DNA from: Escherichia virus TH25
Direction: 5' to 3' (one strand)
Sequence record: MT446399.1
DNA length: 51,729 bases
Part shown: piece after piece, positions 1,960 to 51,729 of the stretch
Layout of the letters: every line of letters begins with the position of its first letter
How positions within the stretch are numbered: the first letter of the stretch is position 1
Notes under the pieces: model-generated
Seen by the model: the letters and a program-made list of their open reading frames with translations, nothing else
The model's database searches: none
What the model was told of the DNA's origin: nothing
Made by a program: the position numbers and the translations under genes

Positions 1960-2301
1960 TTATTTGGCCTTCTTAAACCAATTGAGTGGGTTGAGTTGTT
2001 TGATTGCAGCAGTGAAGCAATCTCGAATTGTGGTAATGATTAGGTTAGCCCCAATCAAACCAATCACCATTGCAGCGATTGTGGCATAGCGCGGTTCATT
2101 TTTGAATATGTCCACGAAGCCTGGGAGGGAGAAAACGAACGTACCAATGACTACACAAAGTAGGGCATCAAGAATGGCCTTCAATAAGCCTTCCTTTTCA
2201 TATGCCCCACGAATGAGTGCAGTCAATCCAGCAAGAAGTCCATGCAGGACTCCATACTGGTGCATTGCTTCCCACACCATCTGGAAAGTTTGTCTATCCA
2301 T
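1960..2301 (-). CDS. Holin (three predicted transmembrane segments, lambda S-like architecture)
   Basis: 113 aa; three hydrophobic stretches and charged C-terminus; several Met codons near N-terminus; adjacent to hydrolase. Confidence 0.5.
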   Translation of the reverse strand: MDRQTFQMVWEAMHQYGVLHGLLAGLTALIRGAYEKEGLLKAILDALLCVVIGTFVFSLPGFVDIFKNEPRYATIAAMVIGLIGANLIITTIRDCFTAAIKQLNPLNWFKKAK

Positions 2302-12111: not shown

Positions 12112-15100
12112 TTATCTACGTTCCATTGCACCATTACCCATGTTGATTGTTTGGGTAACAGTTTGACCGTTCGGAGTTGACACGGTTGCAGACGCTTGCT
12201 TATTGTTCACAGTAGCTTTGACTTCAACGTTAACTACAGTGGCCTGTGTCTGACCATAAGACAGCCCATTTCTGGTGAAGCCAGTTGCACCTTCTGCAAT
12301 AGAATCGCCCTGAGAAGCCCATTCACGGTACTTCTTGACGCGGTTCTGAGCCTGTAGAGGGACAGCATTGAGCCAATCAGTTCCGTGCTTGTTAATAGCA
12401 TCATCAACAGTTCCGGCACCATCTGTATACGCCGCCATAGCCTTCTCAGCGTCACCATTATAACGCTTGAGCATTGCATCGTAGTAGTCACGACCAACGC
12501 GAGCACGCTCTTCCAGTGAGTTATCACGGGCAGGTGTAACGCCGAATCCTGGGTCACGGGAAGTTGAATCAAGAACCTGCATACGACCTTTGGCACCAGT
12601 CGGAGATGTAACCACCGAACCGTCTGCGTTCAAATCGCGGTTCCCTGACTCTTCTCCTGCGATAAAGTCATATACCGTTCTGGTAGTATCAGCTAAACCA
12701 TTTGACGCTGTACGCGCTACTCTGGCTGCATCTCCACCTGCTTCGATAAATGAACTTCCGTAGGATATTGCAGCTTGCGGAACTGCGTATCCTGGCAGCA
12801 CCCCAGCACGCTCCGTCTGCGCTATTCCTAGCTGTGCAACACCATCGGCATACTGTGAGCTGGCTCCACGGCTTACGTTCTCCTGTGCCTCGTTTACGCT
12901 GTAATCTGTGCGGTCATAGGCGCGAGCCATGCCATCCAGACCTGCCATTTCCATAGCACCAGCGATACGCGCCTGACTCCAGCCCCGCTCCTGACCACGT
13001 TCACGCATTACCCGCGCTAAGGCTACAGGGTCGCCCTGTGCCGCACGAATGTCGCCAATAGTGATAAGACCACGGGTTCCCTGAACGATGTTGACAGCGC
13101 CGCTAGGGTCGCCATTCAGGAGGGTGTTATAGGCACTATGTGTGGTTCGATTGAGTCGGCCAGCTTGTTGCTGATTAAGCCCCAACATTTCCAAGCCCTG
13201 CGACATGGAAGAGTATTCATTAGGGTTATTGACACCAGCGTCTAAAGAGTTTCCATAGAAATCGTTCAGACCTTCTAGCGCCTCGTTACCAATCTGGGCA
13301 GCACCAATAGCCATACCCGCCACACGTCCCCACGGGGTCATCATGAGGGCATTCATTGCACCATTGGATAGTGAGCCTATGCTACCGCCAGCTACGCCAG
13401 CAGCCAATGCGCCACCAGCACGACCGAAGTCATCCGAGAAGCTGCCACCAACATTCCAACCACGACCGCCACCGCCACCGGAACCGCCTCCACCAATGCC
13501 ATAACTACTAGCATCGAAGGTGTCCCAGAAGCCACCACCACCGCCACGACCGCTATTGTCCCCGAAGTCGGCATCTTGTCCACGCAGCTTATTTTCTTCC
13601 TGAGCAGCGAGGATACCTTTCTTGACAGATACTGCCATCAGGTCATTGCCAGTTGTGCTGTCAGAGCCTACGGCAGAGGCTGTGGCTTCACCAACTCCAG
13701 CACTGGTACGGTTGCCTATGAATGGGTCATCGGCTGTACCAGCAGCGGCAGAGTAGCCACGCGTTGACTTCTGCTTAACATCCTTCCAGATGCCATCGCC
13801 AGTCATTGCAGCACGAGCACCTTTGATTAAATCATCATTGGACAAGTCTGAATTAGCTTCAACAAACTCTCGACCAGCATTAAGACGACCAATAGTAGAA
13901 TCAATCTTATCTTTGTTGCGTTCGTACCATCCCTCGTCCTTCTCAATCCATTCCGATACCGTCTTGTCTCCGATTGTCTGAGAGAACAATGCACGACTAC
14001 GGCCAGATACAAGCATACCAAATTGAATTTGGTCGAGATAATCCTTATGCTCACCAGCAGATAGGTTAGAAAACTTCTTAGCCCTTTCAGGGTTCTTGTG
14101 TTCCCAAATCGCGTCATCACCGATAAGGCCATCTGGGGAATACATGAACGACGGATAATTGTCATTTGTTATTGCGCCAGCTTGCTCAATGTCGAATCCA
14201 AACTCTTTGGCGACACGGTTACGAGCAACTTCTTCCGTCCGATGACCTGCTTCGAACATTCGTTGGGTAAATTCACTTGGCCCCTTTCCGCGTTGTAGGC
14301 CAATTTTATCAACCATTGCAGCCCAAGGTCGGGTATATTCATTGTTACCAAGAAACGAACCGACAGTTGAACCAGTAATGTCATATTGCTTGCGGAAGTC
14401 TAACCATTCCTGAGTGCCCTGTTCCATGTTGTGATAACGGATTGGGCCTTCTTGCGGAGCTGGTTGTGGAGCAGAGTCCAAATTAGATATAGCAATGCTC
14501 TCGCGACGGGCGCGAGCAGAGTTCCAACTTGTTGGAGAGTCAAGTTGTGCAAGAAACTCTGTAGAGGGACTCAGTTCTGCAGGTCCAGTATTCCTTAAAC
14601 GTTCAGCAGGGTCGAATGTTCGAGCGACTTCTGCCTCATTATATTGGTGAGCATCCTCAAGAACACCACGAATTGATGTACCAGAGTAACGAGGGTCGTC
14701 ACCAATATCTTTCTTAAGGTTATCGTAGCCGGAACGAACATCTGCAATGTCTGCATAACGAGAAGCAGAGTCCAGGATTAAGTCTCTGTCAGAAGATTGA
14801 GTGCGATATGCATTCATTCCTCTTTCAGCACCACCAGAATAAACCTTTGCCGCAGATTTAACTACGCCAGAAACATCTTGGTAGAGCGTTTTGCTTGCAT
14901 CAGACCAACCTGGAGAACCAGATAAGGATGCAGATAAAGAATATTCAGCCTTAATGCCACCACCAAACGAACCAAGAGGTAAACCAGATGCGTTAAGAGG
15001 TTGACGGGGATGCTGAATCCCACCAACAACAGATTCAGAACCAAGTTGAGGTAACGAATCCATGTATGAAAGTTTTGGCCCCGACTTATTTCCTACATTC

Positions 15101-15789
15101 ATTGCAGATACGGCAGCAACTTCTCGGAAGTTTTGCGGTAATTCTGATTCTAAACGTTTGGCTACACGATAAACATCTCGTGCATAGCGGTCTGGGTTGT
15201 CGTATTGTTCACGGTCAACATACATGTGAGCAAGATAGCCAAATGACTTGGCAATATCTCCACGGTTTGTGGAATATTCATCCATAATATTACCGGCATA
15301 GTGTCCGGCAAGTTCAGGCATTATATCTTGATGACCTGCAAGAGTATCTCGCATGTATGAGTTAAGCATTCCCCAATGACCTTCTGGCTTGTTGGGGTTA
15401 GCTTTAGGCATGTGCATCCAAACATCATCAGTGGATACACCAAGTTGTTCCATGTATGCGTGAACTGCTTCTACATGGTGTCCTGGTCCGTTCATTGCAG
15501 CATGGAATGTTTCAGTCAGCCCAGCGCCAGAAATCATCTGTGCTATATGTGCTGCATCTGAAATCATATCAGAAGTCCCGTATGAAGTTTCATCCTCATA
15601 CATCTGGGAATCTGGTTCGCCCAAAAGCTGTGAATTTGTTTCCATCCAACCTGACGCAGCACTTGATTCAAGTTGCTGGGCCATATCTCGTTTGCGCATA
15701 CCAGGATTGAAGGACAGACCGTACTGAGCACCCATGCCGATTAGCTCGGCCTCGGATAGCTTCATTAAATCTTTTAAGTTCTTAGCCAT
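12112..15789 (-). CDS. Tape-measure-like multidomain tail protein with internal YqaJ/lambda-exonuclease-like domain and lytic transglycosylase domain
   Basis: 1225 aa, in tape-measure position after G/G-T chaperone; aa ~455-640 match lambda Exo/YqaJ blocks (ITGSTVGS; MFEAGHRTEEVARNRV; YSPDGLIGDDAIWEHKNP; DQIQFGMLVSG); aa ~1035-1150 carry SLT motifs (EESGN..GAKGRMQ; AMAAYTDGAG); Gly-rich linker aa ~745-810. Confidence 0.6.
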   Translation of the reverse strand: MAKNLKDLMKLSEAELIGMGAQYGLSFNPGMRKRDMAQQLESSAASGWMETNSQLLGEPDSQMYEDETSYGTSDMISDAAHIAQMISGAGLTETFHAAMNGPGHHVEAVHAYMEQLGVSTDDVWMHMPKANPNKPEGHWGMLNSYMRDTLAGHQDIMPELAGHYAGNIMDEYSTNRGDIAKSFGYLAHMYVDREQYDNPDRYARDVYRVAKRLESELPQNFREVAAVSAMNVGNKSGPKLSYMDSLPQLGSESVVGGIQHPRQPLNASGLPLGSFGGGIKAEYSLSASLSGSPGWSDASKTLYQDVSGVVKSAAKVYSGGAERGMNAYRTQSSDRDLILDSASRYADIADVRSGYDNLKKDIGDDPRYSGTSIRGVLEDAHQYNEAEVARTFDPAERLRNTGPAELSPSTEFLAQLDSPTSWNSARARRESIAISNLDSAPQPAPQEGPIRYHNMEQGTQEWLDFRKQYDITGSTVGSFLGNNEYTRPWAAMVDKIGLQRGKGPSEFTQRMFEAGHRTEEVARNRVAKEFGFDIEQAGAITNDNYPSFMYSPDGLIGDDAIWEHKNPERAKKFSNLSAGEHKDYLDQIQFGMLVSGRSRALFSQTIGDKTVSEWIEKDEGWYERNKDKIDSTIGRLNAGREFVEANSDLSNDDLIKGARAAMTGDGIWKDVKQKSTRGYSAAAGTADDPFIGNRTSAGVGEATASAVGSDSTTGNDLMAVSVKKGILAAQEENKLRGQDADFGDNSGRGGGGGFWDTFDASSYGIGGGGSGGGGGRGWNVGGSFSDDFGRAGGALAAGVAGGSIGSLSNGAMNALMMTPWGRVAGMAIGAAQIGNEALEGLNDFYGNSLDAGVNNPNEYSSMSQGLEMLGLNQQQAGRLNRTTHSAYNTLLNGDPSGAVNIVQGTRGLITIGDIRAAQGDPVALARVMRERGQERGWSQARIAGAMEMAGLDGMARAYDRTDYSVNEAQENVSRGASSQYADGVAQLGIAQTERAGVLPGYAVPQAAISYGSSFIEAGGDAARVARTASNGLADTTRTVYDFIAGEESGNRDLNADGSVVTSPTGAKGRMQVLDSTSRDPGFGVTPARDNSLEERARVGRDYYDAMLKRYNGDAEKAMAAYTDGAGTVDDAINKHGTDWLNAVPLQAQNRVKKYREWASQGDSIAEGATGFTRNGLSYGQTQATVVNVEVKATVNNKQASATVSTPNGQTVTQTINMGNGAMERR

Positions 15790-31430: not shown

Positions 31431-31676
31431 TTAAATTTCAATAATGTGAGAGTCAATGTCCAGGTCGGACAGGATAGATTGTGTTACTGCGAAATCTTCC
31501 GATTCCTTTAATGCTTTCAGGGCACTTTCGTAGGTAATATCGCCCTGATAATCACTTCCAAATAATGCCGAGGCGTGCATCTCAATTGCAGACACCGCCA
31601 GTTGTGTGGCCGGAATATCTCCAGCCGCTTGATGGAGTTCCATCTGTTGTTTGTCGTACAAGGCTAAAACACGCAT
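31431..31676 (-). CDS. Hypothetical protein
   Basis: 81-aa ORF; ATGA-type coupling with polymerase gene. Confidence 0.35.
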   Translation of the reverse strand: MRVLALYDKQQMELHQAAGDIPATQLAVSAIEMHASALFGSDYQGDITYESALKALKESEDFAVTQSILSDLDIDSHIIEI

Positions 31677-33610
31677 TAGTGAATCTCCGCGTAGTTATCA
31701 CCGAACTGTACATCACATGCACAATCACGGTTAAGTTTAAGTTCTTTGTTGGTACGTTCCATTGCTTCATTAAGCAAGTCCGTCCACAAATCACGGAAAC
31801 CTTTCTTAACTTGGAGAATCAATTCATCGTGGAATTGTCCAGACAGAAGCGGGTCACAGCCCCAACGTTCGTTGCAAATTGCAATAATGTTGTTACACCA
31901 GATATCAAACACATATGCACCAGTACCCTGACACAGTGTTGAGAAGCGGTCTTTCTCTGTACGCAGAGAATACCAGAATTTGTTTACTGGATTCTGTTGC
32001 CACATCTGACCATCAACTGTGATGACTTTAGTGTTAGCAGCAATCTCTTTGATTGACCAGTTCAGGTCCCAATATGCTTTATGCAGACGTGCAGCCGTTG
32101 ATTGGTCACAGTCAGCAGAACGAGCAACAGTTGGAATACCAGCACCATACTGACAAGCATAGTTAGTGGTCTTAAACATTGGACGTTGCTTACATTTCTG
32201 TATGCCATCCTTGTGGTCCTGAGATTCTTTCTCAGTGATGAACCCGCCGATTACGCCGATTGCAAGGTGAGCATCATAGTCTGGTGCCAACTGCTTCTTA
32301 ACATATTCAGGGTCATACATCCATTGGAAGTGGTGCTTACAGCGGTCTTCCAGTGAACACAAGTCCGAGCCTAGCTGTTCGTAATCTTCACGCCACGCTT
32401 CCAACATTGAACGCAGTTCTTCACCGCCAAATACACGAATAGAAGGGAGGTTAACAAGTTCGCGATGTTTAAGGCGTAAAGTATTGGTAAGGCCACCGCA
32501 TCTCGCAGTAAGGAATCCATCTTCATCGACGTCACGAAGGAAGCCGTTAACAACAGACAGACGGTGTTTATACACGCCCATCCCAATAAGATGTTGAATA
32601 CCGGAGTCGGGGTTTCTTTCTGCCAGCTTATGCAAGCTCGGACAAATTTCGGGATTACCATCTTCATCCTTAACCGTGATTTGAGGAATCTGGCGAGTTT
32701 CGCCTGTTTCTTTATTACGGTCAAACTTAAATGTTTCTGGAACCCAGCCAAGGCTGAATAACCAATCTTTGATTTGTACGTGAGAACCAGCGTTAGGTGC
32801 TTTATACCCTTTAAGAACCTTGATTCCCAGGTCGGGGTCTTTCCAATCCAAACCATTTGCATCACAAACAGCTTTCCACTTTATTCCAGTGGCAGACAAT
32901 TGGCCATTCATTTTGTGACATTTGGCAGGACGGGTTTTAATAACATACTCCGGAACACGAGGCATTGATGCTTCCAATGCATCCGTCTTCTCTTTAATCA
33001 TTGGTTCAAGTTTGGCTTTAAATGCCAGAGCTTTCTCAATGTTCAGCTTCCAGCGAGTACGTTGTTGAATAACTTGTTGACGAGCTTTGGTCATAAGGTA
33101 TTCAATAAAACGTCTAACTTCGCTAGGAGTTTTATAAATCTTGAGGAGTTGAATATACTGCTGTTCCCACAGCTTTAGCTGAATCTTACAGTCTTCCATC
33201 ACACGATGGTTATATTCTTCCTGAGTTTGATTTTCCCAATCATCAATGACTGGTTTCGGCACACCAAACTCTTCTCCATAACCTTCTAAGCCGTGCTTAA
33301 CACGACGAGGTTGCAGATACCAACTGATAAACAAAGTATCAATTAGTGTACATTTTGAAACGTCGTAACCCAAGAACTTCAATGCTTCAAAGTCAAAGGT
33401 TGCGCCGTTGTGCATAATTAGTGTTGGACCTGTGTCCAGAAAGTCTTGAATGGATTTTCGTTGTGTCCACTCAATTACAGTTTCTTCACGAGTCTGAACA
33501 TCAATGTATCCAATGTTGTGTAGACGTGGTGCAGCCTGTTTCTTCATCTGCTCCAACAGACCAGTTGTTTCAATGTCACTGGCATACATATTTTCCCAAG
33601 GATACAACAC
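31676..33610 (-). CDS. DNA polymerase, family A, with 3'-5' exonuclease domain
   Basis: 644 aa; Exo I motif SDIETTGL near N-terminus and Pol I palm motifs (YGAGIPTVA). Confidence 0.85.
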   Translation of the reverse strand: MLYPWENMYASDIETTGLLEQMKKQAAPRLHNIGYIDVQTREETVIEWTQRKSIQDFLDTGPTLIMHNGATFDFEALKFLGYDVSKCTLIDTLFISWYLQPRRVKHGLEGYGEEFGVPKPVIDDWENQTQEEYNHRVMEDCKIQLKLWEQQYIQLLKIYKTPSEVRRFIEYLMTKARQQVIQQRTRWKLNIEKALAFKAKLEPMIKEKTDALEASMPRVPEYVIKTRPAKCHKMNGQLSATGIKWKAVCDANGLDWKDPDLGIKVLKGYKAPNAGSHVQIKDWLFSLGWVPETFKFDRNKETGETRQIPQITVKDEDGNPEICPSLHKLAERNPDSGIQHLIGMGVYKHRLSVVNGFLRDVDEDGFLTARCGGLTNTLRLKHRELVNLPSIRVFGGEELRSMLEAWREDYEQLGSDLCSLEDRCKHHFQWMYDPEYVKKQLAPDYDAHLAIGVIGGFITEKESQDHKDGIQKCKQRPMFKTTNYACQYGAGIPTVARSADCDQSTAARLHKAYWDLNWSIKEIAANTKVITVDGQMWQQNPVNKFWYSLRTEKDRFSTLCQGTGAYVFDIWCNNIIAICNERWGCDPLLSGQFHDELILQVKKGFRDLWTDLLNEAMERTNKELKLNRDCACDVQFGDNYAEIH

Positions 33611-33675: not shown

Positions 33676-35439
33676 TTATTGGTGAGGACCGTTCTTCTTA
33701 GTAAGTTGAACAATCTCTTTGGTTTCGAACAGTGAATCTTCCCAAGAACGTTGAATGATTCGACCAGAGTCTGAGTCATAATACGTCTTGAAGCCTTCTG
33801 TCTTACCACTCTTACGAGCTTTGATGGAACGAATGATTGAGCAGTTTGGGTCTACTGCCTGACTATTACGCTCAAAGCCAAACATGCCATGAGAATATTT
33901 AGCAGCAGCACGAGAACCAGTAAAGTCTGACTTCTTGATTCGTCCACCATCTTCATGAGGTCGCTGACCTTTTGCCACAGGGTTGAGGTGCGACAAGATA
34001 TTGACGTGGAACTGGTATTGGTCTGCCAGCTTAGTAATGTCTGCATACAGCTTGCCTAAGAAGTCGTTCTTCTCTGAGGCAGAAATCCCTTCCGATAAGT
34101 AGGTTAAGTTATCAAGAACAAACATATCAATGTCTGGACCAATCTGACGAAGAATCGTCTTTAACCCATCCCAAGTTTCATAAGGGTCTTCTCCAGCTTG
34201 CTTGCGGTCCCAAATCTCCATGTTACGAAGCATCTTCGCAGCAGTTTGACGGAACTTCGCTTCATCGTATCGAGGGTCTTCACGAGTAAACGCAGGTTCC
34301 CAATACGGCAAGTTGTCATTAAGGCCAGCCATACGTCGTAATGTTTCCGCAGGAGTTTCCTCCATGTATGCAGTAAACACTCCCCAATCGTGCTGGATAA
34401 TGTTGTGATGCACAATCTGTCGAGATAGTGTAGTTTTACCACCACCTTCTGCACCACCGATTGATATAACTTCGGCACGACGCTGACCAAACATTAAGTC
34501 GGTTAGCTTGGGCCAAGGATAGTCCACACCCTGTTCAACTTCGTCATCAAGTTCTTCCATAAGAAGTTCTTTATTGACAAGAGCTGTAGGCAGAGGGCGA
34601 GCAGCGCGGAATACAACAGCAGATTGAGTAGCTTTCAACAAGCCACGTTTCAAACAGTCGTTGGCATCGTTGGCAGGAAGTGTGGCAATCATTGCACCAG
34701 GCAACAAACGACATGCTTCCTTTGCAGCTTTACGCCCAGGTTCATCATCATCAAATACGATAACAACCTGTTCCCAACGTTGCTTGATTTCTTCTGCAAC
34801 TGGTGACAAACATTTGTGTACGGAATCGCTTCCATCACTCAAACTAATTACAGCAAAATCCAAATCTTCATATGCACCACCACGGTTCATAGTTTTGAGG
34901 ATTTGACGCAATGCGATACAGTCTTCTTCACCTTCTGTGATGAACAGTGTCTTACCGCCGATAGCTTTTGCAGCCATCCAGTTATATGGGTCGTTGCCCT
35001 GGGTATCACCAACAGACCACATAACTTTCTTGTTCAGAAGTTTAATCTTCCAGCGAACAAGTTTGCCATTCTTGGTGTATCCATGTGCCAAAGCATTTGG
35101 AGTCTTGCCATCAAACTCTGAATAGAGTAGGCGAACACCAGCAGCTTTCCAGAACTCAGGTTCAATACTGCGATGGTCTAAATCAAATGGAGGGCACGAG
35201 GTTATTTCGTCAATTTCTTCCTGAATTTCTTCTGGAGTCTTGACTTTAATTTCCGGAATATTCTCCGGATTATTGCCATACGGATTCGGAACGAGAACGC
35301 CACATGCAAAGCAGTAACCAGAGAAGTTCTTATTACCAGCTTCATCGACATTCAACCAAACCTGTAAAGACTTGCCAGATGTGGATTTACAGTCTGGTAC
35401 ATCGTGCTTAATCTTGGCAACACATTGCTTGACGTTCAT
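33676..35439 (-). CDS. Primase-helicase (T7 gp4-like)
   Basis: 587 aa; N-terminal Cys zinc finger (CFACGV), TOPRIM region, DnaB-type helicase Walker A (GGAEGGGKTT). Confidence 0.85.
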   Translation of the reverse strand: MNVKQCVAKIKHDVPDCKSTSGKSLQVWLNVDEAGNKNFSGYCFACGVLVPNPYGNNPENIPEIKVKTPEEIQEEIDEITSCPPFDLDHRSIEPEFWKAAGVRLLYSEFDGKTPNALAHGYTKNGKLVRWKIKLLNKKVMWSVGDTQGNDPYNWMAAKAIGGKTLFITEGEEDCIALRQILKTMNRGGAYEDLDFAVISLSDGSDSVHKCLSPVAEEIKQRWEQVVIVFDDDEPGRKAAKEACRLLPGAMIATLPANDANDCLKRGLLKATQSAVVFRAARPLPTALVNKELLMEELDDEVEQGVDYPWPKLTDLMFGQRRAEVISIGGAEGGGKTTLSRQIVHHNIIQHDWGVFTAYMEETPAETLRRMAGLNDNLPYWEPAFTREDPRYDEAKFRQTAAKMLRNMEIWDRKQAGEDPYETWDGLKTILRQIGPDIDMFVLDNLTYLSEGISASEKNDFLGKLYADITKLADQYQFHVNILSHLNPVAKGQRPHEDGGRIKKSDFTGSRAAAKYSHGMFGFERNSQAVDPNCSIIRSIKARKSGKTEGFKTYYDSDSGRIIQRSWEDSLFETKEIVQLTKKNGPHQ

Positions 35440-40091: not shown

Positions 40092-40408
40092 AATGGAACT
40101 CCGTAAATTGGTTGGTTAGTTGTCCATTCGCGAGTTGCGATTTGCATGGACTTGTTTGGTCCGTGGTAGAAGTATTTCTTAACTTCCTCAAGTGTATATT
40201 TAGCACTGCTTCCTAGTATGTCTTTGAAGGTGTGCTTCCAGAACCCATCTTTCTCCGAAATTCCTACGGTAAAGTCGTTGGTTCCGTTGTACCACCAACG
40301 TCCACCAATCAAAACGAAGTGGATTGTTTCTTCCTCACCTTCCCCACTTAGAACGGACGTTAGTACATTTCTTAATGTCAAAACTTTAGCAGAATGCTTG
40401 CGAATCAT
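40088..40408 (-). CDS. Hypothetical protein
   Basis: 106-aa ORF; GGAG 10 nt upstream of ATG. Confidence 0.4.
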   Translation of the reverse strand: MIRKHSAKVLTLRNVLTSVLSGEGEEETIHFVLIGGRWWYNGTNDFTVGISEKDGFWKHTFKDILGSSAKYTLEEVKKYFYHGPNKSMQIATREWTTNQPIYGVPF

Positions 40409-41046
40409 AGGAACTCTCCAATTTTCGATTCAGTGTTTGTGACTTCTCTTCTCATCTTTTGGCCCATGAAACAGGCCACAGGGTTGCGAAAATAGCCCTA
40501 TTTTAGGACTATAGCCAACCGTTTGTGTCAATTCTGGATAACTGCATTGGTGAAGGGTTACTCCCGTTAGGGTGCGGTACGCTAATCACATGAGTGTTGT
40601 CGCCTTACGGCTCAGGCGTGTCACAGAGGCTTTATAACCCTTCCCAATACATTCACCCAAATCCCAGCGTTGGCGTAGCTGGTGGCTTGGTTTTGTGCGG
40701 ATTATGCCACTCTAAGCCCTGTTTGTCCGACTTCCTCGGAGCACCAGCGGCTTGTGGCACAAACCTATTTTCGAATGACTAACATAAGCATGAGGCACAA
40801 CCCTCTAATTATTCAGCCCTAACAGCTTGCTTATTTAGTACCAATTCAACCCAATACATACACAACTATATACAATAGCGAACTATCTGCGAAAACTATC
40901 CGGCCCTATGGCCTAAGTTAAAGTTAATAGTGTGTGATGGAAACATTCCATCGAAAATAACTTTGTAGAATGAGTCGAACATTCTCGCACGTTATCGGCC
41001 GTAACGGTCTACCGAGTTACAAAGTTATTATCTGATGTTGTTTCTT

Positions 41047-41061
41047 CAATTCCAACTAATG
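41047..41061 (-). promoter_or_regulatory. Recurrent motif copy (+ strand CAATTCCAACTAATG)
   Basis: 15-bp motif family member in ORF-free region. Confidence 0.3.
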
Positions 41062-41181
41062 CCAATCTGTGCGACACACTCAGTCCAAGTTGTCCAGACT
41101 TGGTTGCTTAGGTCTGTGCTTATTGCAGTGGACTTCCTAGCAATTACTAATGACTAAGTATGTCGTCAGATTGACACTATT

Positions 41182-41196
41182 CAATTCCAACTAATG
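41182..41196 (-). promoter_or_regulatory. Recurrent motif copy (+ strand CAATTCCAACTAATG)
   Basis: 15-bp motif family member; followed by identical GTTTCAGA as the 41324 copy. Confidence 0.3.
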
Positions 41197-41267
41197 TTTC
41201 AGAATTATTCCAATATTCCAAACAAAAAAGAATAATAAGAATAAAATTAAATAAATGAAGAAAGTGC

Positions 41268-41297
41268 TTGACACCCATTTGGCGATAGGTGTATAAT
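41268..41297 (+). promoter_or_regulatory. Sigma70-type promoter candidate on the plus strand (TTGACA-18 bp-TATAAT with AT-rich upstream element)
   Basis: Consensus -35 at 41268-41273 and consensus -10 at 41292-41297, preceded by about 45 bp of A/T-rich sequence; oriented opposite to all genes. Confidence 0.4.
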
Positions 41298-41323
41298 GCC
41301 TTTCTTCCCTAAGAGGTCAGAAT

Positions 41324-41338
41324 CAAATCCCACTAATG
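41324..41338 (-). promoter_or_regulatory. Recurrent motif copy (+ strand CAAATCCCACTAATG)
   Basis: 15-bp motif family member. Confidence 0.3.
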
Positions 41339-41408
41339 TTTCAGACTAAAGCCGAAGGCCAATGCGAGCACAAAACCCGCTTGGCACTTCGAAGAAACCC
41401 GCCTGGAA

Positions 41409-41648
41409 CTATAGTGTTTTCCAATCTGAGTCAAATAACTCTTTCGGTCGTGTGTAGATAGTAGAAGAATCAATGCTCAAGAACGTATGATTCCCGTACT
41501 TCTTCACTTCTTGATAAGCAAACCCATCTACCCAACTTCCGCAGTGAGTTTTAATCTTTGTAGGCCCAAGAATACGATAGAAAGTGTTACGAGGCTGGTG
41601 GTGAACAATCAGTCCAGCCTCAAGTTCAGCAATATTTAAATCACGCAT
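41409..41648 (-). CDS. Hypothetical protein
   Basis: 79-aa ORF. Confidence 0.35.
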   Translation of the reverse strand: MRDLNIAELEAGLIVHHQPRNTFYRILGPTKIKTHCGSWVDGFAYQEVKKYGNHTFLSIDSSTIYTRPKELFDSDWKTL

Positions 41649-42189
41649 TTAAGAACAATACTCCTTCGGAGAAGATGTAGTCGCTGCCGTAATCTTTGAC
41701 GATTGCATCCCAATCAATATATGGACGAAGATGGTCTGGAACTTCTATACCATCATATTGTTTGAAGTAGTCTGCAATTGAATCACAACGAGTAATAAAC
41801 ATGTCATTCAAACTGTCGACGGTGAAAATATCAATCTCGCCACTACGGAATGCTGCAAGAATTACAAACAAATCAGTGTCATTTAAAAGCTCATTGAATT
41901 TGTCATACTTGCGTAGGCTGAATAGGCCATCAACAAAGCAAACTTCTGTAACATCCTCATCTCTTGATTCGAGAATGTCGTAAGTCCCTGTTTCTGGGTA
42001 CTCGATGCCATATTCTTCGTGTAAATATTCTGACATGTTGAAGTCATATAGCCGCCATGCCAGGCCATCAATCCAAGCATCTTCATGCTCGGAATTGTTT
42101 TCGCCTGTGTAGAAACGAACCAGTAAGGTTTCATCTCTACGCCAGGACTTAAGCTGTTCTACTGCTTGAGTAATGTTATCGTTTTGCAT
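41641..42189 (-). CDS. Strongly acidic early protein (DNA-mimic candidate)
   Basis: 182 aa with roughly 40 Asp/Glu versus about 13 Lys/Arg by eye; early-region position. Confidence 0.4.
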   Translation of the reverse strand: MQNDNITQAVEQLKSWRRDETLLVRFYTGENNSEHEDAWIDGLAWRLYDFNMSEYLHEEYGIEYPETGTYDILESRDEDVTEVCFVDGLFSLRKYDKFNELLNDTDLFVILAAFRSGEIDIFTVDSLNDMFITRCDSIADYFKQYDGIEVPDHLRPYIDWDAIVKDYGSDYIFSEGVLFLNA

Positions 42190-49472: not shown

Positions 49473-51413
49473 TTACTGGCAGAAGTAGTAAGCGTGTTCG
49501 CTCATCAGAAGTTCTTCTGTTACGATGTTCTCATGGTACATGTTGATGCCACCAAGTTGCTTGGACAGAGATTCAAACTGATTATTGTGAACAAAGATTT
49601 CAACATAAGCAGAACGAATAACTTCCATCATTTTAGGAGCATCAGCTAAGCAGCAACGGAAACAATCGTGAATTGAAGTGAAACCACGAAGACCAGCTTC
49701 TTTAGCTTTGACTGCAACAGTACGAGCAACCAATGCGTCAATACCTTGAATGTAGTTAACAACGAAGGTACGCTTGAATTCTTCTTTAGTTGGATTGGAC
49801 TCACGAATGGTCCAAGGCTTATTCTCCTGAATCTGACCAAAGATGACACGAGTTTGAGAGTCAACACGAATGCTGAACGCATCACAAACATCACGAGATG
49901 GGAAGCAAGGCTTCATTACAACCTGACCATCAGTGTGCTTATAGGTGATGTACTCTTTGTTGAGTTCAACACAACGGTTGTATGCAGCATCAGCAGCTTT
50001 CTCGATGAACATGTTAATCTTAGCACCCAATGCATTATGGATTGCTTCTACACAAAGTTCAGCAAATGCTTCTGCTTTCTCCATAGGAATCTGGAGCGCT
50101 TCTGTCATGTATGCGATGAAGTCAGAAGAACCAGTTAATGCAGCTTTACCACCACCATATTGGATAGCCATGTATGGAGTTTTGATAAACTTACGACCAG
50201 CTTTCGGATTCAAGAATTCATCCATAATTTCAGCGGATGGTTTCATTGAAGAACGGTCAAGCAACTTCAACAGTTCACGAAGAGATAACTGGTATGGGTC
50301 AGATGCTTTAGTCTCAGAATCAACCAGACCTGTTGCACGAGCCATCTCCATGTTACCAGCAATGAATGCCAGATATTGAGTACCAGAACATTTAGCATCT
50401 AAGCCAAAGCCTACACGAGAATCACACTCACCTGTAGTCTCAAACTTGAACCAATCCAGAGCTAATCGAACATAAGTGAATGGCTTAGAAGGACGCTCAC
50501 CTTTAGGCATGTTCAGCATACGAGCCAAAGAACCAGCAGGATTCTGTGCAACATAAGTTAAACGTTTAGCAGAAGTCCAGTCTCCACCAGCAATATCTTC
50601 CAGCTCAAGCATGAACATGTTGTATGCCAGAGTTGTAGAACCATCAGCATTAAACTTGCTCACAGTGTTCTCAACATTGTGGGAATACAGGCAACGAGCA
50701 AAGTCAGATGATTGTGGGTTAGGACCAGCACACGCTACGTGATACAGACGACCACGGTTATCAGCAAAGTAGTCAGAGAACAGAGTGTCCTGACCAACCA
50801 TTGCTACAGCATTGTTCCAAACATGGAGTTCAGTCTGGATTGCTTCTGGCATCTGCAAGCCACCAAATGTACGTTGTTCTAACATGGAAGAGATAACCTT
50901 AACCATTGTTGCATCGACGTGATATTCAGTATCTTGCAGGAATTCGATTGCAGCTTTCAGAGTCTTGGATGGCTTAACTTTGCCACCTTTAACGAAAGGC
51001 TTGCGACGAGATTCAGTTGTTACCTTCTCAGTGAATGGAACTGAGGTATCTTTGGTTGTAACCAGTTCAACCCATGCGTCAGTCATCTGGAACGATTTGT
51101 CCTCGTTCATGGTGATGAAACCGAAGTGTTTAGCCAGACCAATCAGGTTGATAGCTGGGTCAACATAGTGCATTGATTTCAAGTCGTTGTTGTAACGGTT
51201 GGCATCAGCAATAGAAGCAGAAGCCAGTTCAACCATCGAGATAGCCGGAATAACGTCATCACGCGTGAAAGACGTCATCATCTTGAATATGGCTAAGGCA
51301 GCAATAGCACAAGTCTGGGGCTGCATATAGTTCTGCTTCTCTTTGGCACGATATACCAGAGCGGTGATAGCAGGAACAACAGATTTGATAGTTTGAGTAG
51401 TGATAGTAGTCAT
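49473..51413 (-). CDS. Single-subunit DNA-dependent RNA polymerase (T7-like, compact)
   Basis: Blocks matching T7 RNAP: DNRGRLYHV (DWRGRVYAV), LDAKCSGTQY (DGSCSGIQH, motif A), YMAIQYGGGK (MTLAYGSKE, motif B), TSIHDCF (LIHDSFG, motif C); ATG at 51413 has GGAG 9 nt upstream; 646 aa. Confidence 0.8.
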   Translation of the reverse strand: MTTITTQTIKSVVPAITALVYRAKEKQNYMQPQTCAIAALAIFKMMTSFTRDDVIPAISMVELASASIADANRYNNDLKSMHYVDPAINLIGLAKHFGFITMNEDKSFQMTDAWVELVTTKDTSVPFTEKVTTESRRKPFVKGGKVKPSKTLKAAIEFLQDTEYHVDATMVKVISSMLEQRTFGGLQMPEAIQTELHVWNNAVAMVGQDTLFSDYFADNRGRLYHVACAGPNPQSSDFARCLYSHNVENTVSKFNADGSTTLAYNMFMLELEDIAGGDWTSAKRLTYVAQNPAGSLARMLNMPKGERPSKPFTYVRLALDWFKFETTGECDSRVGFGLDAKCSGTQYLAFIAGNMEMARATGLVDSETKASDPYQLSLRELLKLLDRSSMKPSAEIMDEFLNPKAGRKFIKTPYMAIQYGGGKAALTGSSDFIAYMTEALQIPMEKAEAFAELCVEAIHNALGAKINMFIEKAADAAYNRCVELNKEYITYKHTDGQVVMKPCFPSRDVCDAFSIRVDSQTRVIFGQIQENKPWTIRESNPTKEEFKRTFVVNYIQGIDALVARTVAVKAKEAGLRGFTSIHDCFRCCLADAPKMMEVIRSAYVEIFVHNNQFESLSKQLGGINMYHENIVTEELLMSEHAYYFCQ

Positions 51414-51481
51414 TTGTAAGTCTCCAAGATTGTGTATGATTTGAATGAAACGGATTATAATAGCGTAGCCATTACACAATT

Positions 51482-51496
51482 CACGTCCAACTAATA
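51482..51496 (-). promoter_or_regulatory. Recurrent motif copy (+ strand CACGTCCAACTAATA)
   Basis: 69 bp upstream of RNAP ATG; a TATAAT hexamer (minus strand, 51454-51459) lies between motif and gene. Confidence 0.35.
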
Positions 51497-51729
51497 TCAC
51501 AAACCTGTGCCATTGTTAGCACAGCACGGAGACTTTGACCTTGACTCATAAGCGAAGCGCCTAACTTGGTGTTGTTTGAAAGCCGATAGGCTGTAGAAAA
51601 AGTTGGGGTAGGGACCGTATTTAAGTCCGATAGGACGTTGGGCTTCCCCTCCCCGCCACCTCAAAAATAAAAATAATATTGCCACAATTCTAGTCTCATT
51701 AATATTGAAACAATTTGAGTCTCATTAAT

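What the first reader, a model, noticed from the sequence alone, without database searches (positions are those of the whole stretch)
40409..41408. 1-kb ORF-free region with three promoter-motif copies and a consensus sigma70 promoter pointing against all genes
The region between the genes starting at 40408 and ending at 41409 has no long ORF. It carries three copies of the 15-bp motif within 290 bp (41047, 41182, 41324). On the plus strand it has TTGACA-18 bp-TATAAT (41268-41297) preceded by about 45 bp of A/T-rich sequence that could act as an UP element. A strong host-type promoter firing antisense to a unidirectional phage genome could make a regulatory or antisense RNA, drive a tiny plus-strand ORF (ATG 41361, about 32 codons, with GAAGG just upstream), or prime replication.
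Basis: seen in the sequence. Interest (0 to 1): 0.45.

Follow-up and report, generated by a model that had tools for sequence, protein, structure and literature searches.

The report
Phage control region with large structured RNA
The "empty" kilobase is the early-to-middle control region of a phiEcoM-GJ1-like coliphage: tandem phage-polymerase promoters drive a conserved, about 600-nucleotide folded non-coding RNA that matches no catalogued family, and next to them a perfect host-type promoter pointing backwards is conserved across most of the phage subfamily.

Summary
Window 40409-41408 has no conserved ORF. It holds three copies of a 16-nt motif and the window's only perfect TTGACA-N18-TATAAT.

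The motif is the phage single-subunit RNA polymerase promoter. All three copies lie on the minus strand, pointing the same way as the genes.

Downstream of the third promoter, 41045-40440 (minus) is an about 600-nt non-coding RNA:
- Fold z-score is -6.6, against -2.1 for the other strand.
- 98.5% of predicted pair cells are paired.
- 30 pairs show compensatory changes, against about 9 in shuffles.
- G-U pairs outnumber A-C 254 to 13.
- Substitutions show no codon periodicity.
- Rfam gives no match.

Recognisable RNA motifs occur in the same gene neighbourhood in all eight Cleopatravirinae lineages examined, although flanking proteins are only 30-36% identical. In one relative, the apex of the RNA's 5' domain is a true tRNA-scoring element.

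The antisense sigma70 promoter is probably real. Both hexamers are perfect, with a 17-18 nt spacer, in all 22 sequences tabulated, from seven lineages. They decay only in Loessnervirus, where the spacer has collapsed to 8 nt.

The promoter faces promoter P1 and abuts an AT-rich block with repeated motifs, an arrangement like the T7 primary origin. The plus-strand mini-ORF is frameshifted in relatives and is rejected. Functions are inferred, not shown.

The parts
41354..41390 (-). Terminator-like hairpin after the stop codon of the upstream 79-aa gene. It is flanked by a direct repeat CCARGCGGGTTT (41373-41384 and 41395-41406).
   Evidence: Fold (z -3.7). The homologous site is annotated as a rho-independent terminator in SA91KD. 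Coordinates. The simple terminator scan did not list it.
41323..41338 (-). P1, a phage single-subunit RNAP promoter motif (CATTAGTGGGATTTGA).
   Evidence: The homologue is annotated 'putative phage promoter 4' in phiEcoM-GJ1. A P1-like motif lies 38-54 nt upstream of the sigma70 -10 complement in every lineage with the 18-nt spacer.
41268..41297 (+). Consensus sigma70 promoter TTGACA-N18-TATAAT pointing against the genes. The predicted start is near 41304-41305, face to face with P1.
   Evidence: 12/12 match. It is unique in the window, against 0.02 expected. Hexamers and 17-18 nt spacing are conserved in 22 sequences from 7 lineages. The hexamers decay where the spacing is lost.
41257..41307 (-). 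Hairpin in the P1 transcript that contains the complement of both sigma70 hexamers and is followed by a U-rich tract.
   Evidence: Fold (z -3.5). The spacer forms an inverted repeat in most lineages but not clearly in PP101 or Myduc (my reading of the sequences).
41197..41267 (.). A/T-rich block (80% A+T) with repeated TGGAATA/GAATAA motifs. The tandem TTGGAATATTGGAATAAT lies at 41204-41221, directly upstream of P2.
   Evidence: The block is 69-116 nt long, with 2-5 GGAATA copies in Carltongylesvirus, 4HA13, phiA050, Faunus and L050. It is absent in Loessnervirus.
41181..41196 (-). P2, a phage RNAP promoter motif (CATTAGTTGGAATTGA).
   Evidence: GJ1 'putative phage promoter 5' is the single P2/P3-type copy that this phage has here. 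P2 together with its upstream block is conserved at 85-87% nucleotide identity in 4HA13, phiA050 and Faunus.
41062..41180 (-). Variable promoter-bounded cassette ('module X') containing the hairpin CCAAGT-CTGGACA-ACTTGG (41085-41103).
   Evidence: Absent in TH23, TH24, Bp7, MLP1, 2KOFFS, BSBP01 and GJ1; replaced in Mangalitsa, PYps3T and YSF. Homologous to the apex of RNA domain 1 in phiA050 (score 64, against 21+-4.5 for shuffles).
41046..41061 (-). P3, a phage RNAP promoter motif and the last promoter before the structured RNA.
40440..41045 (-). Conserved structured non-coding RNA (or 5' leader) of about 600 nt.
   Evidence: MFE -199.4 kcal/mol, z -6.6, against z -2.1 for the plus strand. 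RNAalifold predicts 181 pairs. 98.5% of pair cells are paired, and 30 pairs change on both sides against 9.1+-1.9 in shuffles and 2-6 in slid controls. There are 254 G-U against 13 A-C pair cells. No codon periodicity: 83/84/77 variable columns by phase. No Rfam match.
40929..41044 (-). RNA domain 1: a long basal stem with a tRNA-shaped apex. Its parts are an acceptor-like stem (41018-41024 with the TACAAAG at 40961-40967), an anticodon-arm-like hairpin (40990-41006), a T-arm-like hairpin GAATG-TTCGACT-CATTC (40968-40984), and the invariant hairpin GATGGAATGTTTCCATC (40936-40952).
   Evidence: Helices 2 and 5 have 12 of 22 pairs with compensatory changes. In contig L050 the same slot scores 49.3 bits with Rfam tRNA and is called by ARAGORN. 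In the window itself there is no tRNA hit.
40778..40839 (-). Three-way junction holding the most conserved motif, AGCUGUUAGGGCUGAAUAAUUAGAG.
   Evidence: The motif is present in 4HA13, phiA050, Faunus, L022, L050 and L163; variants of it (GGGCUGAUAAUU, GGGCUGAUUGAAU) occur in Y2, Myduc and PP101. TH26 carries a replaced cassette that keeps the same fold (my reading of the alignment).
40699..40764 (-). Helix UGCCAC/GUGGCA enclosing a hairpin with a GGAAG loop (40726-40740).
   Evidence: Cross-genus compensatory changes: helix 8 has 4 of 5 pairs changed on both sides. The stems are UCCGA/UCGGA, GCUGA/UCAGC and UUGAA/UUCAA.
40533..40661 (-). Domain 3: a long helix of about 26 bp enclosing a hypervariable hairpin (40573-40626).
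   Evidence: Helices 18 and 19. A covariance model built only from Carltongylesvirus sequences finds this domain in L050 (E 1e-18), L022 (3e-4), 4HA13 (2.5e-3), phiA050 (0.03) and L163 (0.07), each on the sense strand; in 4HA13, phiA050, L050 and L163 the hit coordinates fall inside the homologous gap.
40461..40516 (-). Two 3' hairpins, followed by the conserved GUCACA element and a purine-rich tract (40435-40460).
   Evidence: Helices 22-24. CAGUCACA upstream of the ribosome-binding site is conserved across genera.
40406..40421 (-). Shine-Dalgarno sequence UUGGAGAG and the ATG of the downstream 106-aa gene.
41362..41457 (+).
   Evidence: Frameshifting 1-nt indels in six relatives. Only 3 nt separate GAAGG from the ATG.

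Best explanation
The gap is the intergenic control region between the early (host-takeover) genes and the DNA-metabolism genes of a phiEcoM-GJ1/ST32-like Carltongylesvirus phage (Chaseviridae, Cleopatravirinae).

Reading in the direction of the genes (minus strand):
1. Terminator-like hairpins close the early operon.
2. Three copies of the phage single-subunit RNA polymerase promoter (P1, P2, P3) restart transcription.
3. P3, with read-through from P1 and P2, transcribes an about 600-nt conserved, highly folded non-coding RNA that runs up to the ribosome-binding site of the next gene.

Shown: the RNA is not coding. It is structured on the minus strand only, its helices covary, and recognisable motifs of it sit in the same gene neighbourhood in all eight Cleopatravirinae lineages examined, upstream of at least five unrelated genes.

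Inferred, about 35-40% likely: it acts as an abundant leader that is processed. Its two helices of about 25 bp have the size of RNase III substrates, like the T7 R-sites. Processing would leave a stable folded RNA module and a defined mRNA 5' end. The apex of domain 1 is a swappable slot that holds a tRNA or tRNA-like element in some lineages.

On the opposite strand sits a genuine host sigma70 promoter (about 75% likely to be functional). It lies face to face with P1 and has an A/T-rich, repeat-bearing block behind it.

Inferred, about 30% likely: host polymerase bound or firing there gates P1 and helps open the A/T-rich block, so that P1, the A/T block and P2 act like the T7 phi1.1A/B primary origin.
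For: Identity and context:
- DNA is 84-93% identical to Carltongylesvirus phages.
- The RNAP gene is at 49473-51500, primase/helicase at 33676-35439 and DNA polymerase at 31676-33610.
- The same gene order, ending in ArdA, a small gene and then a gap, is seen in SA91KD, Mangalitsa, ST32, 4HA13, Faunus, Y2, PP101 and Myduc.

Promoters:
- 11 motif matches against 0.22 expected, 10 of them on the gene strand.
- GenBank annotates them as promoters in GJ1 and SA91KD.

RNA:
- z -6.6 on the minus strand against -2.1 on the plus strand.
- Alifold energy -167 for the sense strand against -134 for the antisense strand; 254 G-U against 13 A-C pair cells.
- 30 of 181 pairs have double changes, against 9.1+-1.9 in shuffles (0/500) and 2-6 in slid controls.
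- In the cross-genus alignment, 16 of 47 pairs have double changes, against 3.8+-1.6 in shuffles.
- A covariance model built from one genus finds domain 3 in five other lineages.
- No codon periodicity, whereas the flanking genes give 6/3/26 and 29/22/82 variable columns by codon position.
- Islands of 78-95% nucleotide identity persist where ArdA is 30-36% identical.
- The downstream genes differ between lineages.

tRNA slot: 49.3 bits with Rfam tRNA, and an ARAGORN call, in L050.

Sigma70 promoter. Where the spacer is 8 nt (Loessnervirus), the hexamers drift and the A/T block and P2 are missing.
Against: - No transcript, RNA end or processing data exist. All promoter and RNA-end assignments are computational.
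- Relatedness inflates the shuffle controls, and the effective number of sequences in the covariance model is only 1.16. Many 'double changes' are whole-hairpin swaps by recombination.
- phiEcoM-GJ1 lacks the RNA core: window 40550-40815 is replaced there by 583 nt carrying a 133-aa ORF. The RNA is therefore not essential for lytic growth, at least in that phage.
- No terminator separates the RNA from the downstream gene, so a free-standing RNA would need processing.
- The window's own domain 1 does not score as a tRNA.
- Loessnervirus keeps both hexamers only 8 nt apart, so they might serve something other than sigma70.
- Loessnervirus also lacks the A/T block, which argues against an indispensable origin.
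- GC skew shows no inflection near 41 kb.
Confidence: 0.6

Rival explanations
1. One reading: the key element is the antisense sigma70 promoter. Host polymerase makes a regulatory antisense RNA against the 3' end of the early operon (the 79-aa gene and ArdA), or translates the tiny plus-strand ORF.
For: The promoter is perfect and deeply conserved. The plus-strand region 41298-41408 that it would transcribe is nearly invariant within the genus.
Against: The mini-ORF is frameshifted in six relatives. No plus-strand terminator lies downstream, so no defined small RNA is predicted. The invariance of 41298-41408 is equally explained by the minus-strand terminator hairpins and P1. This view leaves 600 nt of conserved structured minus-strand RNA unexplained.
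Confidence: 0.2
2. The P1 / A/T-rich / P2 segment (41181-41338) is the phage's primary replication origin, of the T7 phi1.1A/B type. Transcripts from the phage promoter enter an A/T-rich unwinding element and prime DNA synthesis. The sigma70 promoter and P2 fire away from the A/T block in opposite directions and help to open it.
For: Tandem phage promoters are followed by a 71-nt block of 80% A+T with repeated TGGAATA/GAATAA motifs. The segment lies about 20% from the left end, just upstream of the replication genes, and the phage encodes T7-like RNAP, primase-helicase, family-A DNA polymerase and 5'-3' exonuclease. The block and P2 are conserved at 85-87% nucleotide identity across genera. 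The resemblance to T7 rests on established knowledge of the T7 primary origin, not on a test made here.
Against: Loessnervirus phages lack the A/T block and P2. PP101 and Myduc have A/T-rich sequence but lack the TGGAATA repeats (none in PP101, one GGAATA in Myduc). There is no skew signal. The primase recognition sequence is unknown. T7 has no sigma70 promoter at its origin.
Confidence: 0.3
3. The structured RNA acts in trans as an accessory factor. One example would be a decoy or mimic, with its tRNA-like apex, against host tRNA-targeting or RNA-sensing defences. It would not be a cis-acting leader.
For: It is independent of the identity of the downstream gene. It is dispensable in GJ1. It lies next to the anti-restriction gene in the host-takeover module. 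It is driven by tandem promoters. Its apex slot is swappable and holds a true tRNA-scoring element in L050. Its blocks are far more conserved than the neighbouring proteins.
Against: There is no terminator or known processing site to release it. The tRNA-like apex is absent in Faunus, phiA050, L163 and MLP1. No host homologue that it could mimic was found: there is no match in 5,426 E. coli genomes and only three chance hits in GTDB genomes.
Confidence: 0.2
4. The sigma70 match is a by-product: the ATTATA and TGTCAA hexamers are conserved for another reason, such as a site for a phage protein or a signal in the P1 transcript.
For: Loessnervirus phages keep both hexamers only 8 nt apart, where no sigma70 promoter can form. 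In several lineages the spacer is a hairpin in the P1 transcript.
Against: In 22 sequences from 7 lineages the spacing is exactly 17-18 nt with zero hexamer mismatches, although the spacer sequences differ and PP101 and Myduc show no clear hairpin. In the 8-nt lineage, two of four sequences already carry a hexamer mismatch. An A/T-rich, UP-like tract accompanies every 17-18-nt version except metagenome contig L064, where the block is replaced.
Confidence: 0.15
5. The gap is decayed coding sequence or recombination debris with no function.
For: Annotators call different small ORFs here in different genomes. Cassettes are gained and lost.
Against: Blocks of about 100 nt are nearly invariant. Islands stay conserved across genera where proteins have diverged to 30-36% identity. 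Helices covary, stability is strand-specific, and there is no codon periodicity.
Confidence: 0.03

Closest known systems
Phage T7 class II start region: promoters phi1.1A/phi1.1B with the primary replication origin and the early terminator TE
   Same: A phage-encoded single-subunit RNAP. Tandem phage promoters at the early/DNA-metabolism boundary, about 15-20% from the left end. An A/T-rich block directly downstream of a promoter. A terminator-like hairpin ending the early unit.
   Different: T7 has no antisense sigma70 promoter there and no 600-nt structured leader. Here the RNAP gene is the first gene of the genome. Origin function was not tested here, and the A/T block is missing in one genus.
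T7-type RNase III processing hairpins (R-sites) in intergenic leaders
   Same: Long, imperfect helices of about 25 bp in phage-RNAP transcripts between genes (domain 1 basal stem and domain 3 helix).
   Different: T7 R-sites are single hairpins of about 60 nt. This is a multi-domain fold of about 600 nt with invariant junctions. Cleavage was not tested.
Large ornate phage-associated RNAs (GOLLD, ROOL) in Rfam
   Same: A large (over 500 nt), multi-domain, covarying non-coding RNA carried by phages, with function unknown. GOLLD and ROOL are described as large ornate bacterial RNAs in PMC12286853 (listed); their association with phages is from my own knowledge.
   Different: No covariance-model match to these or any of the other 4227 Rfam families, even at E<=5. 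Different hosts. Here the RNA is a leader fused to an mRNA and transcribed by a T7-like RNAP.
tRNA genes and tRNA-like structures of phages
   Same: The apex of domain 1 has an acceptor-like stem and a T-arm-like hairpin (TTCGACT loop) that covaries. The same slot in L050 scores 49.3 bits as tRNA.
   Different: In the window it fails both ARAGORN and the Rfam tRNA model. The 'acceptor' stem continues into a long helix without a CCA end, and other lineages carry unrelated hairpins there.
ColE1 RNA II / RNA I replication primer system
   Same: A folded transcript of about 550-600 nt next to a candidate origin, in a replicon that uses a family-A DNA polymerase, with an opposing sigma70 promoter nearby (from my own knowledge of ColE1; a lead only).
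   Different: The antisense promoter lies upstream of P3, so its transcript does not overlap the structured RNA. No RNA-DNA hybrid signals were identified. The RNA core is dispensable in GJ1.

Membership tests
Single-subunit (T7-like) phage RNAP promoter | A conserved motif of about 16-20 nt, repeated through the genome in the direction of the genes | tested here: met
   11 matches against 0.22 expected, 10 on the gene strand; consensus CATTAGTTGGAWKTGA.
Single-subunit (T7-like) phage RNAP promoter | The phage encodes a single-subunit RNAP | tested here: met
   Pfam RNA_pol PF00940, E 1.3e-18, for window 49476-51500.
Single-subunit (T7-like) phage RNAP promoter | Transcription starts mapped at the motif | not testable with these tools
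   No transcript data are available. The ICTV profile states that Chaseviridae promoters are not yet identified, while GenBank records annotate them as putative.
Bacterial sigma70 promoter | -35 TTGACA and -10 TATAAT hexamers separated by 17+-1 nt | tested here: met
   12/12 match with an 18-nt spacer; unique in the window.
Bacterial sigma70 promoter | Hexamers and spacing kept under selection in relatives | tested here: met
   All 22 sequences from 7 lineages have perfect hexamers and a 17-18 nt spacer. The exception is Loessnervirus, where the spacer is 8 nt and the hexamers drift.
Bacterial sigma70 promoter | Open-complex formation and a transcript start with host holoenzyme | not testable with these tools
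   This needs in vitro transcription or 5'-end mapping.
T7-type primary replication origin | Phage promoter(s) followed by an A/T-rich unwinding region | tested here: met
   P1 is followed by 71 nt of 80% A+T and then P2.
T7-type primary replication origin | The element is conserved in all relatives that share the replication machinery | tested here: inconclusive
   An A/T-rich tract behind the promoter is present in 7 lineages, but P2 and the TGGAATA repeats accompany it only in Carltongylesvirus, 4HA13, phiA050, Faunus and L050. The A/T block and P2 are absent in Loessnervirus.
T7-type primary replication origin | Replication initiates there | not testable with these tools
   No replication mapping is available, and GC skew is uninformative.
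tRNA | A cloverleaf that passes ARAGORN or the Rfam RF00005 threshold | tested here: not met
   In the window there is no ARAGORN gene and no RF00005 hit at E<=10 on 40935-41045. The same slot in relative L050 passes with 49.3 bits against a 29-bit threshold, and is called by ARAGORN.
Any Rfam 15 family (including GOLLD, ROOL, OLE, RNase P, tmRNA, group I/II introns, riboswitches) | A covariance-model match at the gathering score | tested here: not met
   No match in the window at gathering thresholds. Only two chance-level hits at E<=5 in 40300-41500.
Structured non-coding RNA (generic) | Strand-specific thermodynamic stability beyond shuffled sequence | tested here: met
   z -6.6 on the minus strand against -2.1 on the plus strand.
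Structured non-coding RNA (generic) | Compensatory base-pair changes beyond the controls | tested here: met
   30 pairs against 9.1+-1.9 in shuffles and 2-6 in slid controls. In the cross-genus alignment, 16 pairs against 3.8+-1.6.
Structured non-coding RNA (generic) | Absence of a protein-coding signal | tested here: met
   Variable columns by phase are 83/84/77, against 6/3/26 and 29/22/82 in the flanking genes. Stops occur in all frames.
Intrinsic (rho-independent) terminator | A G+C-rich hairpin immediately followed by a U run | tested here: inconclusive
   The simple scan lists no minus-strand site in 40200-41900. Stable hairpins are present at 41354-41390 and 41257-41307, the latter followed by a U-rich tract. 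The homologue of the first is annotated as a terminator in SA91KD.
Protein-coding gene (plus-strand mini-ORF 41362-41457) | The reading frame is conserved in relatives | tested here: not met
   1-nt indels in TH26, Mangalitsa, GJ1, Bp7, 2KOFFS and BSBP01.

The most novel reading that the evidence does not exclude
The about 600-900 nt element is a previously undescribed class of large, multi-domain phage RNA. It would be made in quantity by a T7-like polymerase, released from its mRNA, and would act in its own right, for example as a decoy against host RNA- or tRNA-directed immunity or as a scaffold or primer for replication. Its swappable apical slot can hold a tRNA. In this reading, the deeply conserved backward-facing host promoter next to it is a dedicated switch through which the state of the host polymerase controls phage promoter P1 and the adjacent A/T-rich origin-like block.
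Probability: 0.25. Interest if true: 0.85.

Novelty: new variant of a known kind. Interest (0 to 1): 0.62.

Why it matters
Chaseviridae combine a myovirus body with a T7-like transcription system, and their regulation is essentially unstudied. The ICTV profile still says their promoters are unidentified.

This one kilobase offers three directly testable things:
- A statistically solid promoter motif for the phage polymerase.
- A host-type promoter kept perfect across seven lineages while pointing the 'wrong' way. That implies an unrecognised use of host RNA polymerase in the middle of a T7-like programme.
- A large covarying RNA with no Rfam family. It adds to the short list of big structured phage RNAs and is easy to study in E. 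coli. It is naturally deleted in one sequenced relative (GJ1), which supplies a ready control.

There is also a practical point. Many GenBank records fill this gap with spurious small ORFs, and several assemblies break at its promoter repeats.

Tried and rejected
- Rfam at gathering and at relaxed thresholds gave nothing, so RNase P, tmRNA, introns, GOLLD/ROOL and riboswitches are rejected.
- ARAGORN on the window and 25 loci found only an unrelated tRNA-Ser in SA91KD and the L050 element. The Rfam tRNA model on the window and on BSBP01 domain 1 gave no hit.
- Pfam on the flanking small proteins and on the GJ1 insert ORF gave no families.
- The search for related loci with ArdA returned only close relatives.
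Screening by nhmmer left only four real homologues: L050, L064, and L086 and L123, which gave identical scores. The viral-contig scan with the same pattern added L163. Five of the 11 viral-contig hits to GGGCTGAATAATTWGAG were L021, L025, L026, L031 and L022: the first four were chance matches, and L022 is a partial homologue.
- There is no homologue in 5,426 E. coli genomes or in GTDB genomes, so host-RNA mimicry and a prophage origin have no support.
- The Nefertitivirinae phage pAh6-C has no homologue of the RNA or of the sigma70 element.
- The phiEcoM-GJ1 paper (AEM 2008) is not held. The ST32, Yersinia-phage and other papers checked do not mention this region. The catalogue of 10,006 viral candidate structured RNAs (PMC10690425) could not be checked for overlap.
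- A hidden small protein in the invariant core (for example the 35-aa GTG ORF at 40653-40760) was considered and rejected. It has no Shine-Dalgarno sequence, the ORF lengths differ between relatives (35-73 aa), and the cross-genus changes are compensatory in helices rather than synonymous.
- C/D-box or K-turn, ColE1-like antisense control and polypurine-primer ideas were considered from the sequence and dropped, because the motifs are not conserved across lineages.
Full report
**What the window is.** The DNA around the finding is 84-93% identical to about 48 sequenced phages of the phiEcoM-GJ1/ST32 group (Chaseviridae, Cleopatravirinae, Carltongylesvirus). All genes run on the minus strand. 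The single-subunit RNA polymerase gene is at the right end of the window, which is the left end of the phage (49473-51500; Pfam RNA_pol). Primase-helicase (33676-35439), family-A DNA polymerase (31676-33610), ThyX and a 5'-3' exonuclease lie further down. The gap at 40409-41408 follows the endolysin, the ArdA-like anti-restriction gene (41641-42189) and a 79-aa gene (41409-41648). It precedes the block that leads to the replication genes. The gap therefore sits at the early/DNA-metabolism boundary, about 20% from the phage left end.

**Checking the observation.**
- No ORF longer than 62 aa lies in the gap.
- The motif CATTAGTKGGAWTTGA occurs at 41046-61, 41181-96 and 41323-38. The window has 11 matches against 0.22 expected, 10 of them on the minus strand.
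- TTGACA-N18-TATAAT at 41268-41297 (+) is a 12/12 match and the only perfect one in 51.7 kb, against 0.02 expected.
- The tract behind it (41197-41267) is 80% A+T.
- The correction that matters: the three motif copies are on the gene strand. The GenBank record of phiEcoM-GJ1 annotates 'putative phage promoters 4 and 5' here, and SA91KD annotates two promoters. I call the three copies P1, P2 and P3, in the order of transcription.

**The gap has two parts.** An alignment of 16 relatives shows a promoter-proximal part and a transcribed part.
- The promoter-proximal part (41062-41408) is 93-98% conserved, except for a cassette between P2 and P3 (41062-41180).
- That cassette is absent in seven relatives, which then have only two promoters, and is replaced in three others.
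- The transcribed part (40409-41061) is present in all relatives.
- The promoters therefore bound exchangeable cassettes. The window's cassette is homologous to a piece that sits inside the RNA in Aeromonas phage phiA050.

**The transcribed part is a structured RNA.** The evidence is as follows.
- The alignment shows nearly invariant blocks of up to about 100 nt, interrupted by hairpins whose sequences are completely different in different phages but always self-complementary.
- The minus-strand sequence 41045-40440 folds to -199.4 kcal/mol with z = -6.6. The plus strand gives z = -2.1.
- RNAalifold predicts 181 pairs. The consensus energy is -167 for the sense strand against -134 for the antisense strand.
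- The sense structure contains 254 G-U cells but only 13 A-C cells. The same helices would therefore carry 254 mismatches on the other strand.
- On this structure 98.5% of cells are paired, and 30 pairs change on both sides. Column shuffles give 9.1+-1.9 (0 of 500 reach the observed value), and structures slid by 1-3 columns give 2-6.
- Substitutions show no codon periodicity: 83/84/77 variable columns by phase, against 6/3/26 and 29/22/82 for the two flanking genes. All frames carry stops in all relatives. The small ORFs that various annotators placed here are inconsistent between genomes.
- Rfam 15 has no match at gathering or at relaxed thresholds.

**Architecture of the RNA (window coordinates, minus strand).**
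- Domain 1 (41044-40929) is a long basal stem with a tRNA-shaped apex. The apex has an acceptor-like stem, an anticodon-arm-like hairpin and a T-arm-like hairpin, GAATG-TTCGACT-CATTC, whose stem covaries (GAACG/CGTTC, ACAGG/CCTGT, AAGG/CCTT). The domain ends with the invariant hairpin GATGGAATGTTTCCATC.
- A three-way junction (40839-40778) carries the most conserved motif, AGCUGUUAGGGCUGAAUAAUUAGAG.
- A helix (40764-40699) encloses a hairpin with a GGAAG loop.
- Domain 3 (40661-40533) is a helix of about 26 bp enclosing a hypervariable hairpin.
- Two 3' hairpins follow, then a conserved CAGUCACA element just before the ribosome-binding site.

**How far the RNA extends.** In phages whose ArdA protein is only 30-36% identical to the window's, stretches of the RNA remain 78-95% identical at the nucleotide level, and the helices are kept through compensatory changes.
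- The GGAAG hairpin stem is UCCGA/UCGGA, GCUGA/UCAGC or UUGAA/UUCAA.
- The enclosing helix is UGCCAC/GUGGCA, GCCUAU/AUAGGC or GCCAUUU/AAAUGGC.
- On the cross-genus alignment, 16 of 47 pairs change on both sides, against 3.8+-1.6 in shuffles.
- A covariance model of domain 3 built only from Carltongylesvirus sequences finds the homologous domain, on the sense strand, in metagenome contig L050 (E 1e-18), IMG/VR contig L022 (3e-4), 4HA13 (2.5e-3), phiA050 (0.03) and L163 (0.07).
- The same gene order, ending in ArdA, a small gene and a gap of 0.5-1.1 kb, is annotated in Faunus, Y2 (Loessnervirus), PP101 (Suwonvirus) and Myduc (Myducvirus). Recognisable RNA motifs occur in those gaps.
- No homologue was found in the Nefertitivirinae phage pAh6-C, in 5,426 E. 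coli genomes or in GTDB genomes.
- The gene downstream of the RNA differs among lineages, with at least five unrelated N-termini. The RNA is therefore a module of its own rather than the private leader of one gene.

**The tRNA question.**
- In contig L050 the apex of domain 1 scores 49.3 bits with the Rfam tRNA model, whose threshold is 29, and ARAGORN calls it a tRNA with an odd anticodon loop.
- In the window the same slot keeps the shape, but it fails both tools.
- Faunus, phiA050, L163 and MLP1 carry unrelated hairpins there.
- I therefore describe the window's element as tRNA-like in shape only. It occupies a slot that holds a real tRNA-type element in at least one relative.

**A caution on essentiality.** phiEcoM-GJ1 replaces window 40550-40815 (domain 3, the GGAAG helix and half of the junction) with 583 nt that hold a 133-aa ORF with no Pfam match. 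The RNA core is therefore dispensable for that phage. This points to an accessory or host-dependent role rather than an indispensable one.

**The antisense sigma70 promoter.**
- I tabulated the element in 22 sequences and then in PP101 and Myduc. In Carltongylesvirus, Sabourvirus (4HA13), Faunusvirus, phiA050, L050, Suwonvirus and Myducvirus, both hexamers are perfect and the spacer is 18 nt. It is 17 nt in three sequences.
- The spacer sequence differs between lineages. It is a hairpin-forming inverted repeat in most lineages, but not clearly so in PP101 or Myduc.
- An A/T-rich tract always lies behind the -35. The one exception is metagenome contig L064, where that block is replaced.
- In Loessnervirus (Y2, SNUABM_27, Papaline) and in L022, the two hexamers are only 8 nt apart. 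The A/T block and P2 are missing there, and two of the four sequences already carry a hexamer mismatch (TAAAAT, TTGACG).
- Perfect conservation wherever the geometry fits sigma70, and drift where it does not, is what selection for promoter function predicts. I put about 75% on a working host promoter.
- Its predicted start (near 41304) faces P1, whose predicted start is near 41322, so the two would overlap head-on by about 18 nt. In other lineages the P1-like motif lies 38-54 nt from the -10 complement, so this face-to-face layout is conserved.
- No plus-strand terminator follows the promoter.
- The 31-codon plus-strand ORF is broken by 1-nt indels in six relatives.

**The A/T-rich block.**
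- It is 69-116 nt long and 75-82% A+T in the lineages in which P2 follows it. It carries 2-5 GGAATA and 1-5 GAATAA motifs.
- The tandem TTGGAATATTGGAATAAT directly upstream of P2 is nearly invariant across the lineages that have P2.
- On the minus strand, the P1 transcript first forms a stable hairpin (41307-41257, z -3.5) and then runs into this U-rich tract.
- A phage promoter followed by an A/T-rich block, at about 20% of the genome and just before the replication genes, is the layout of the T7 primary origin (phi1.1A/B). That comparison rests on established knowledge of T7, not on a test made here.
- In addition, the sigma70 promoter and P2 fire away from the block in opposite directions, which would favour its unwinding. 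This is inference.
- Against an essential origin: Loessnervirus lacks the block, and GC skew shows nothing at this position.

**Most likely mechanism, and how sure I am.**
- Shown by computation: a promoter cluster for the phage polymerase, a conserved strand-specific covarying non-coding RNA, and a conserved sigma70-type promoter in antisense orientation.
- Inferred at 35-40%: the RNA is an abundant leader processed at its long helices, like the RNase III sites of T7. Processing would leave a stable folded module and a defined mRNA 5' end.
- Inferred at about 20%: the RNA acts in trans as an accessory factor, for example as a decoy.
- Inferred at about 30%: P1, the A/T block and P2 form a T7-like origin, and host polymerase at the antisense promoter gates or assists it.
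- None of these can be decided without transcript mapping, probing and mutants.

**Novelty.**
- The promoters themselves are already annotated as putative, although the ICTV profile still calls Chaseviridae promoters unidentified.
- I found no description of the structured RNA or of the conserved antisense host promoter in the papers available. Two gaps remain: the 2008 GJ1 paper is not held, and the anonymous catalogue of 10,006 viral candidate structured RNAs could contain fragments of this RNA.
- I rate the finding as a new variant of a known kind. The early/middle control region is T7-like, but it carries two undescribed elements.

Noticed in passing
window 41062-41180 (minus); L006 (phiA050) RNA domain 1: The cassette between P2 and P3 is homologous to the apex of RNA domain 1 in Aeromonas phage phiA050 (local score 64, against 21+-4.5 for shuffles) and to the same cassette in IMG/VR contig L163. 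RNA modules therefore appear to move between promoter-bounded slots.
   Followed up: partly
L003 (phiEcoM-GJ1) 1642-2224: GJ1 replaces the RNA core (window 40550-40815) with 583 nt containing a 133-aa ORF annotated 'putative exonuclease SbcC'. The ORF has no Pfam match.
   Followed up: partly
L007 (Faunus) about 1815-2000 and L006 (phiA050) about 1990-2135, minus strand: Between their P2 and P3 promoters, Faunus and phiA050 carry small unannotated ORFs (about 61 and 45 aa). They are Cys-rich, with CxxC...CxxC in Faunus.
   Followed up: no
MN850594 (flopper) record end; OQ818695, OQ818697, OQ818699, OQ818700, OQ818702 record ends: Six GenBank records end at the promoter repeat inside this gap. 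These are probably assembly breaks at the tandem promoter copies rather than physical genome ends.
   Followed up: no
PP952070.1 'Staphylococcus phage Pel53': This record is about 90% identical in DNA to these coliphages across the gap and carries the same ArdA gene. The Staphylococcus hyicus host label looks doubtful.
   Followed up: no
window 41641-42189 and its homologues: The ArdA-like anti-restriction gene is annotated 'tail fiber protein' in PYps3T, PYps4T, PYps16T, PYps23T, MLP1 and FXie-2024a, and 'replication inhibitor protein' in Pel53.
   Followed up: no
window 41373-41384 and 41395-41406: A direct repeat CCARGCGGGTTT lies just after the stop codon of the upstream gene. Related double motifs occur in other genera: GTTCCAAGC twice in 4HA13 (GTTCCAAGC plus GTTCCAATC in Faunus, TTCCAAGC plus GTGCCAAAC in PP101), and ACTTGGAAC twice in Y2. 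These could be a protein-binding site or part of the terminator.
   Followed up: no
L167 (Y2) 7541-8026: The annotated gp30 of Erwinia phage Y2 starts inside sequence that matches RNA domain 3 (GUGAUUAUAUCGGGUAGGGCU...), so its start codon or the CDS itself may be wrong.
   Followed up: no
L172 (Aeromonas phage pAh6-C, Nefertitivirinae) 34-1157 and 6599-7134: The other subfamily has no homologue of the RNA. It does have a 1.1-kb ORF-free stretch right after its RNAP gene and a 535-nt gap that appears to hold tRNA genes.
   Followed up: no
window 12500-14000: G+C rises to 0.55, against about 0.44 for the rest of the genome, inside the 1225-aa ORF (12112-15789).
   Followed up: no
window 49784-49799 (+): The only plus-strand match to the phage promoter motif (CTTTAGTTGGATTGGA, 2 mismatches) lies inside the RNAP gene region.
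   Followed up: no
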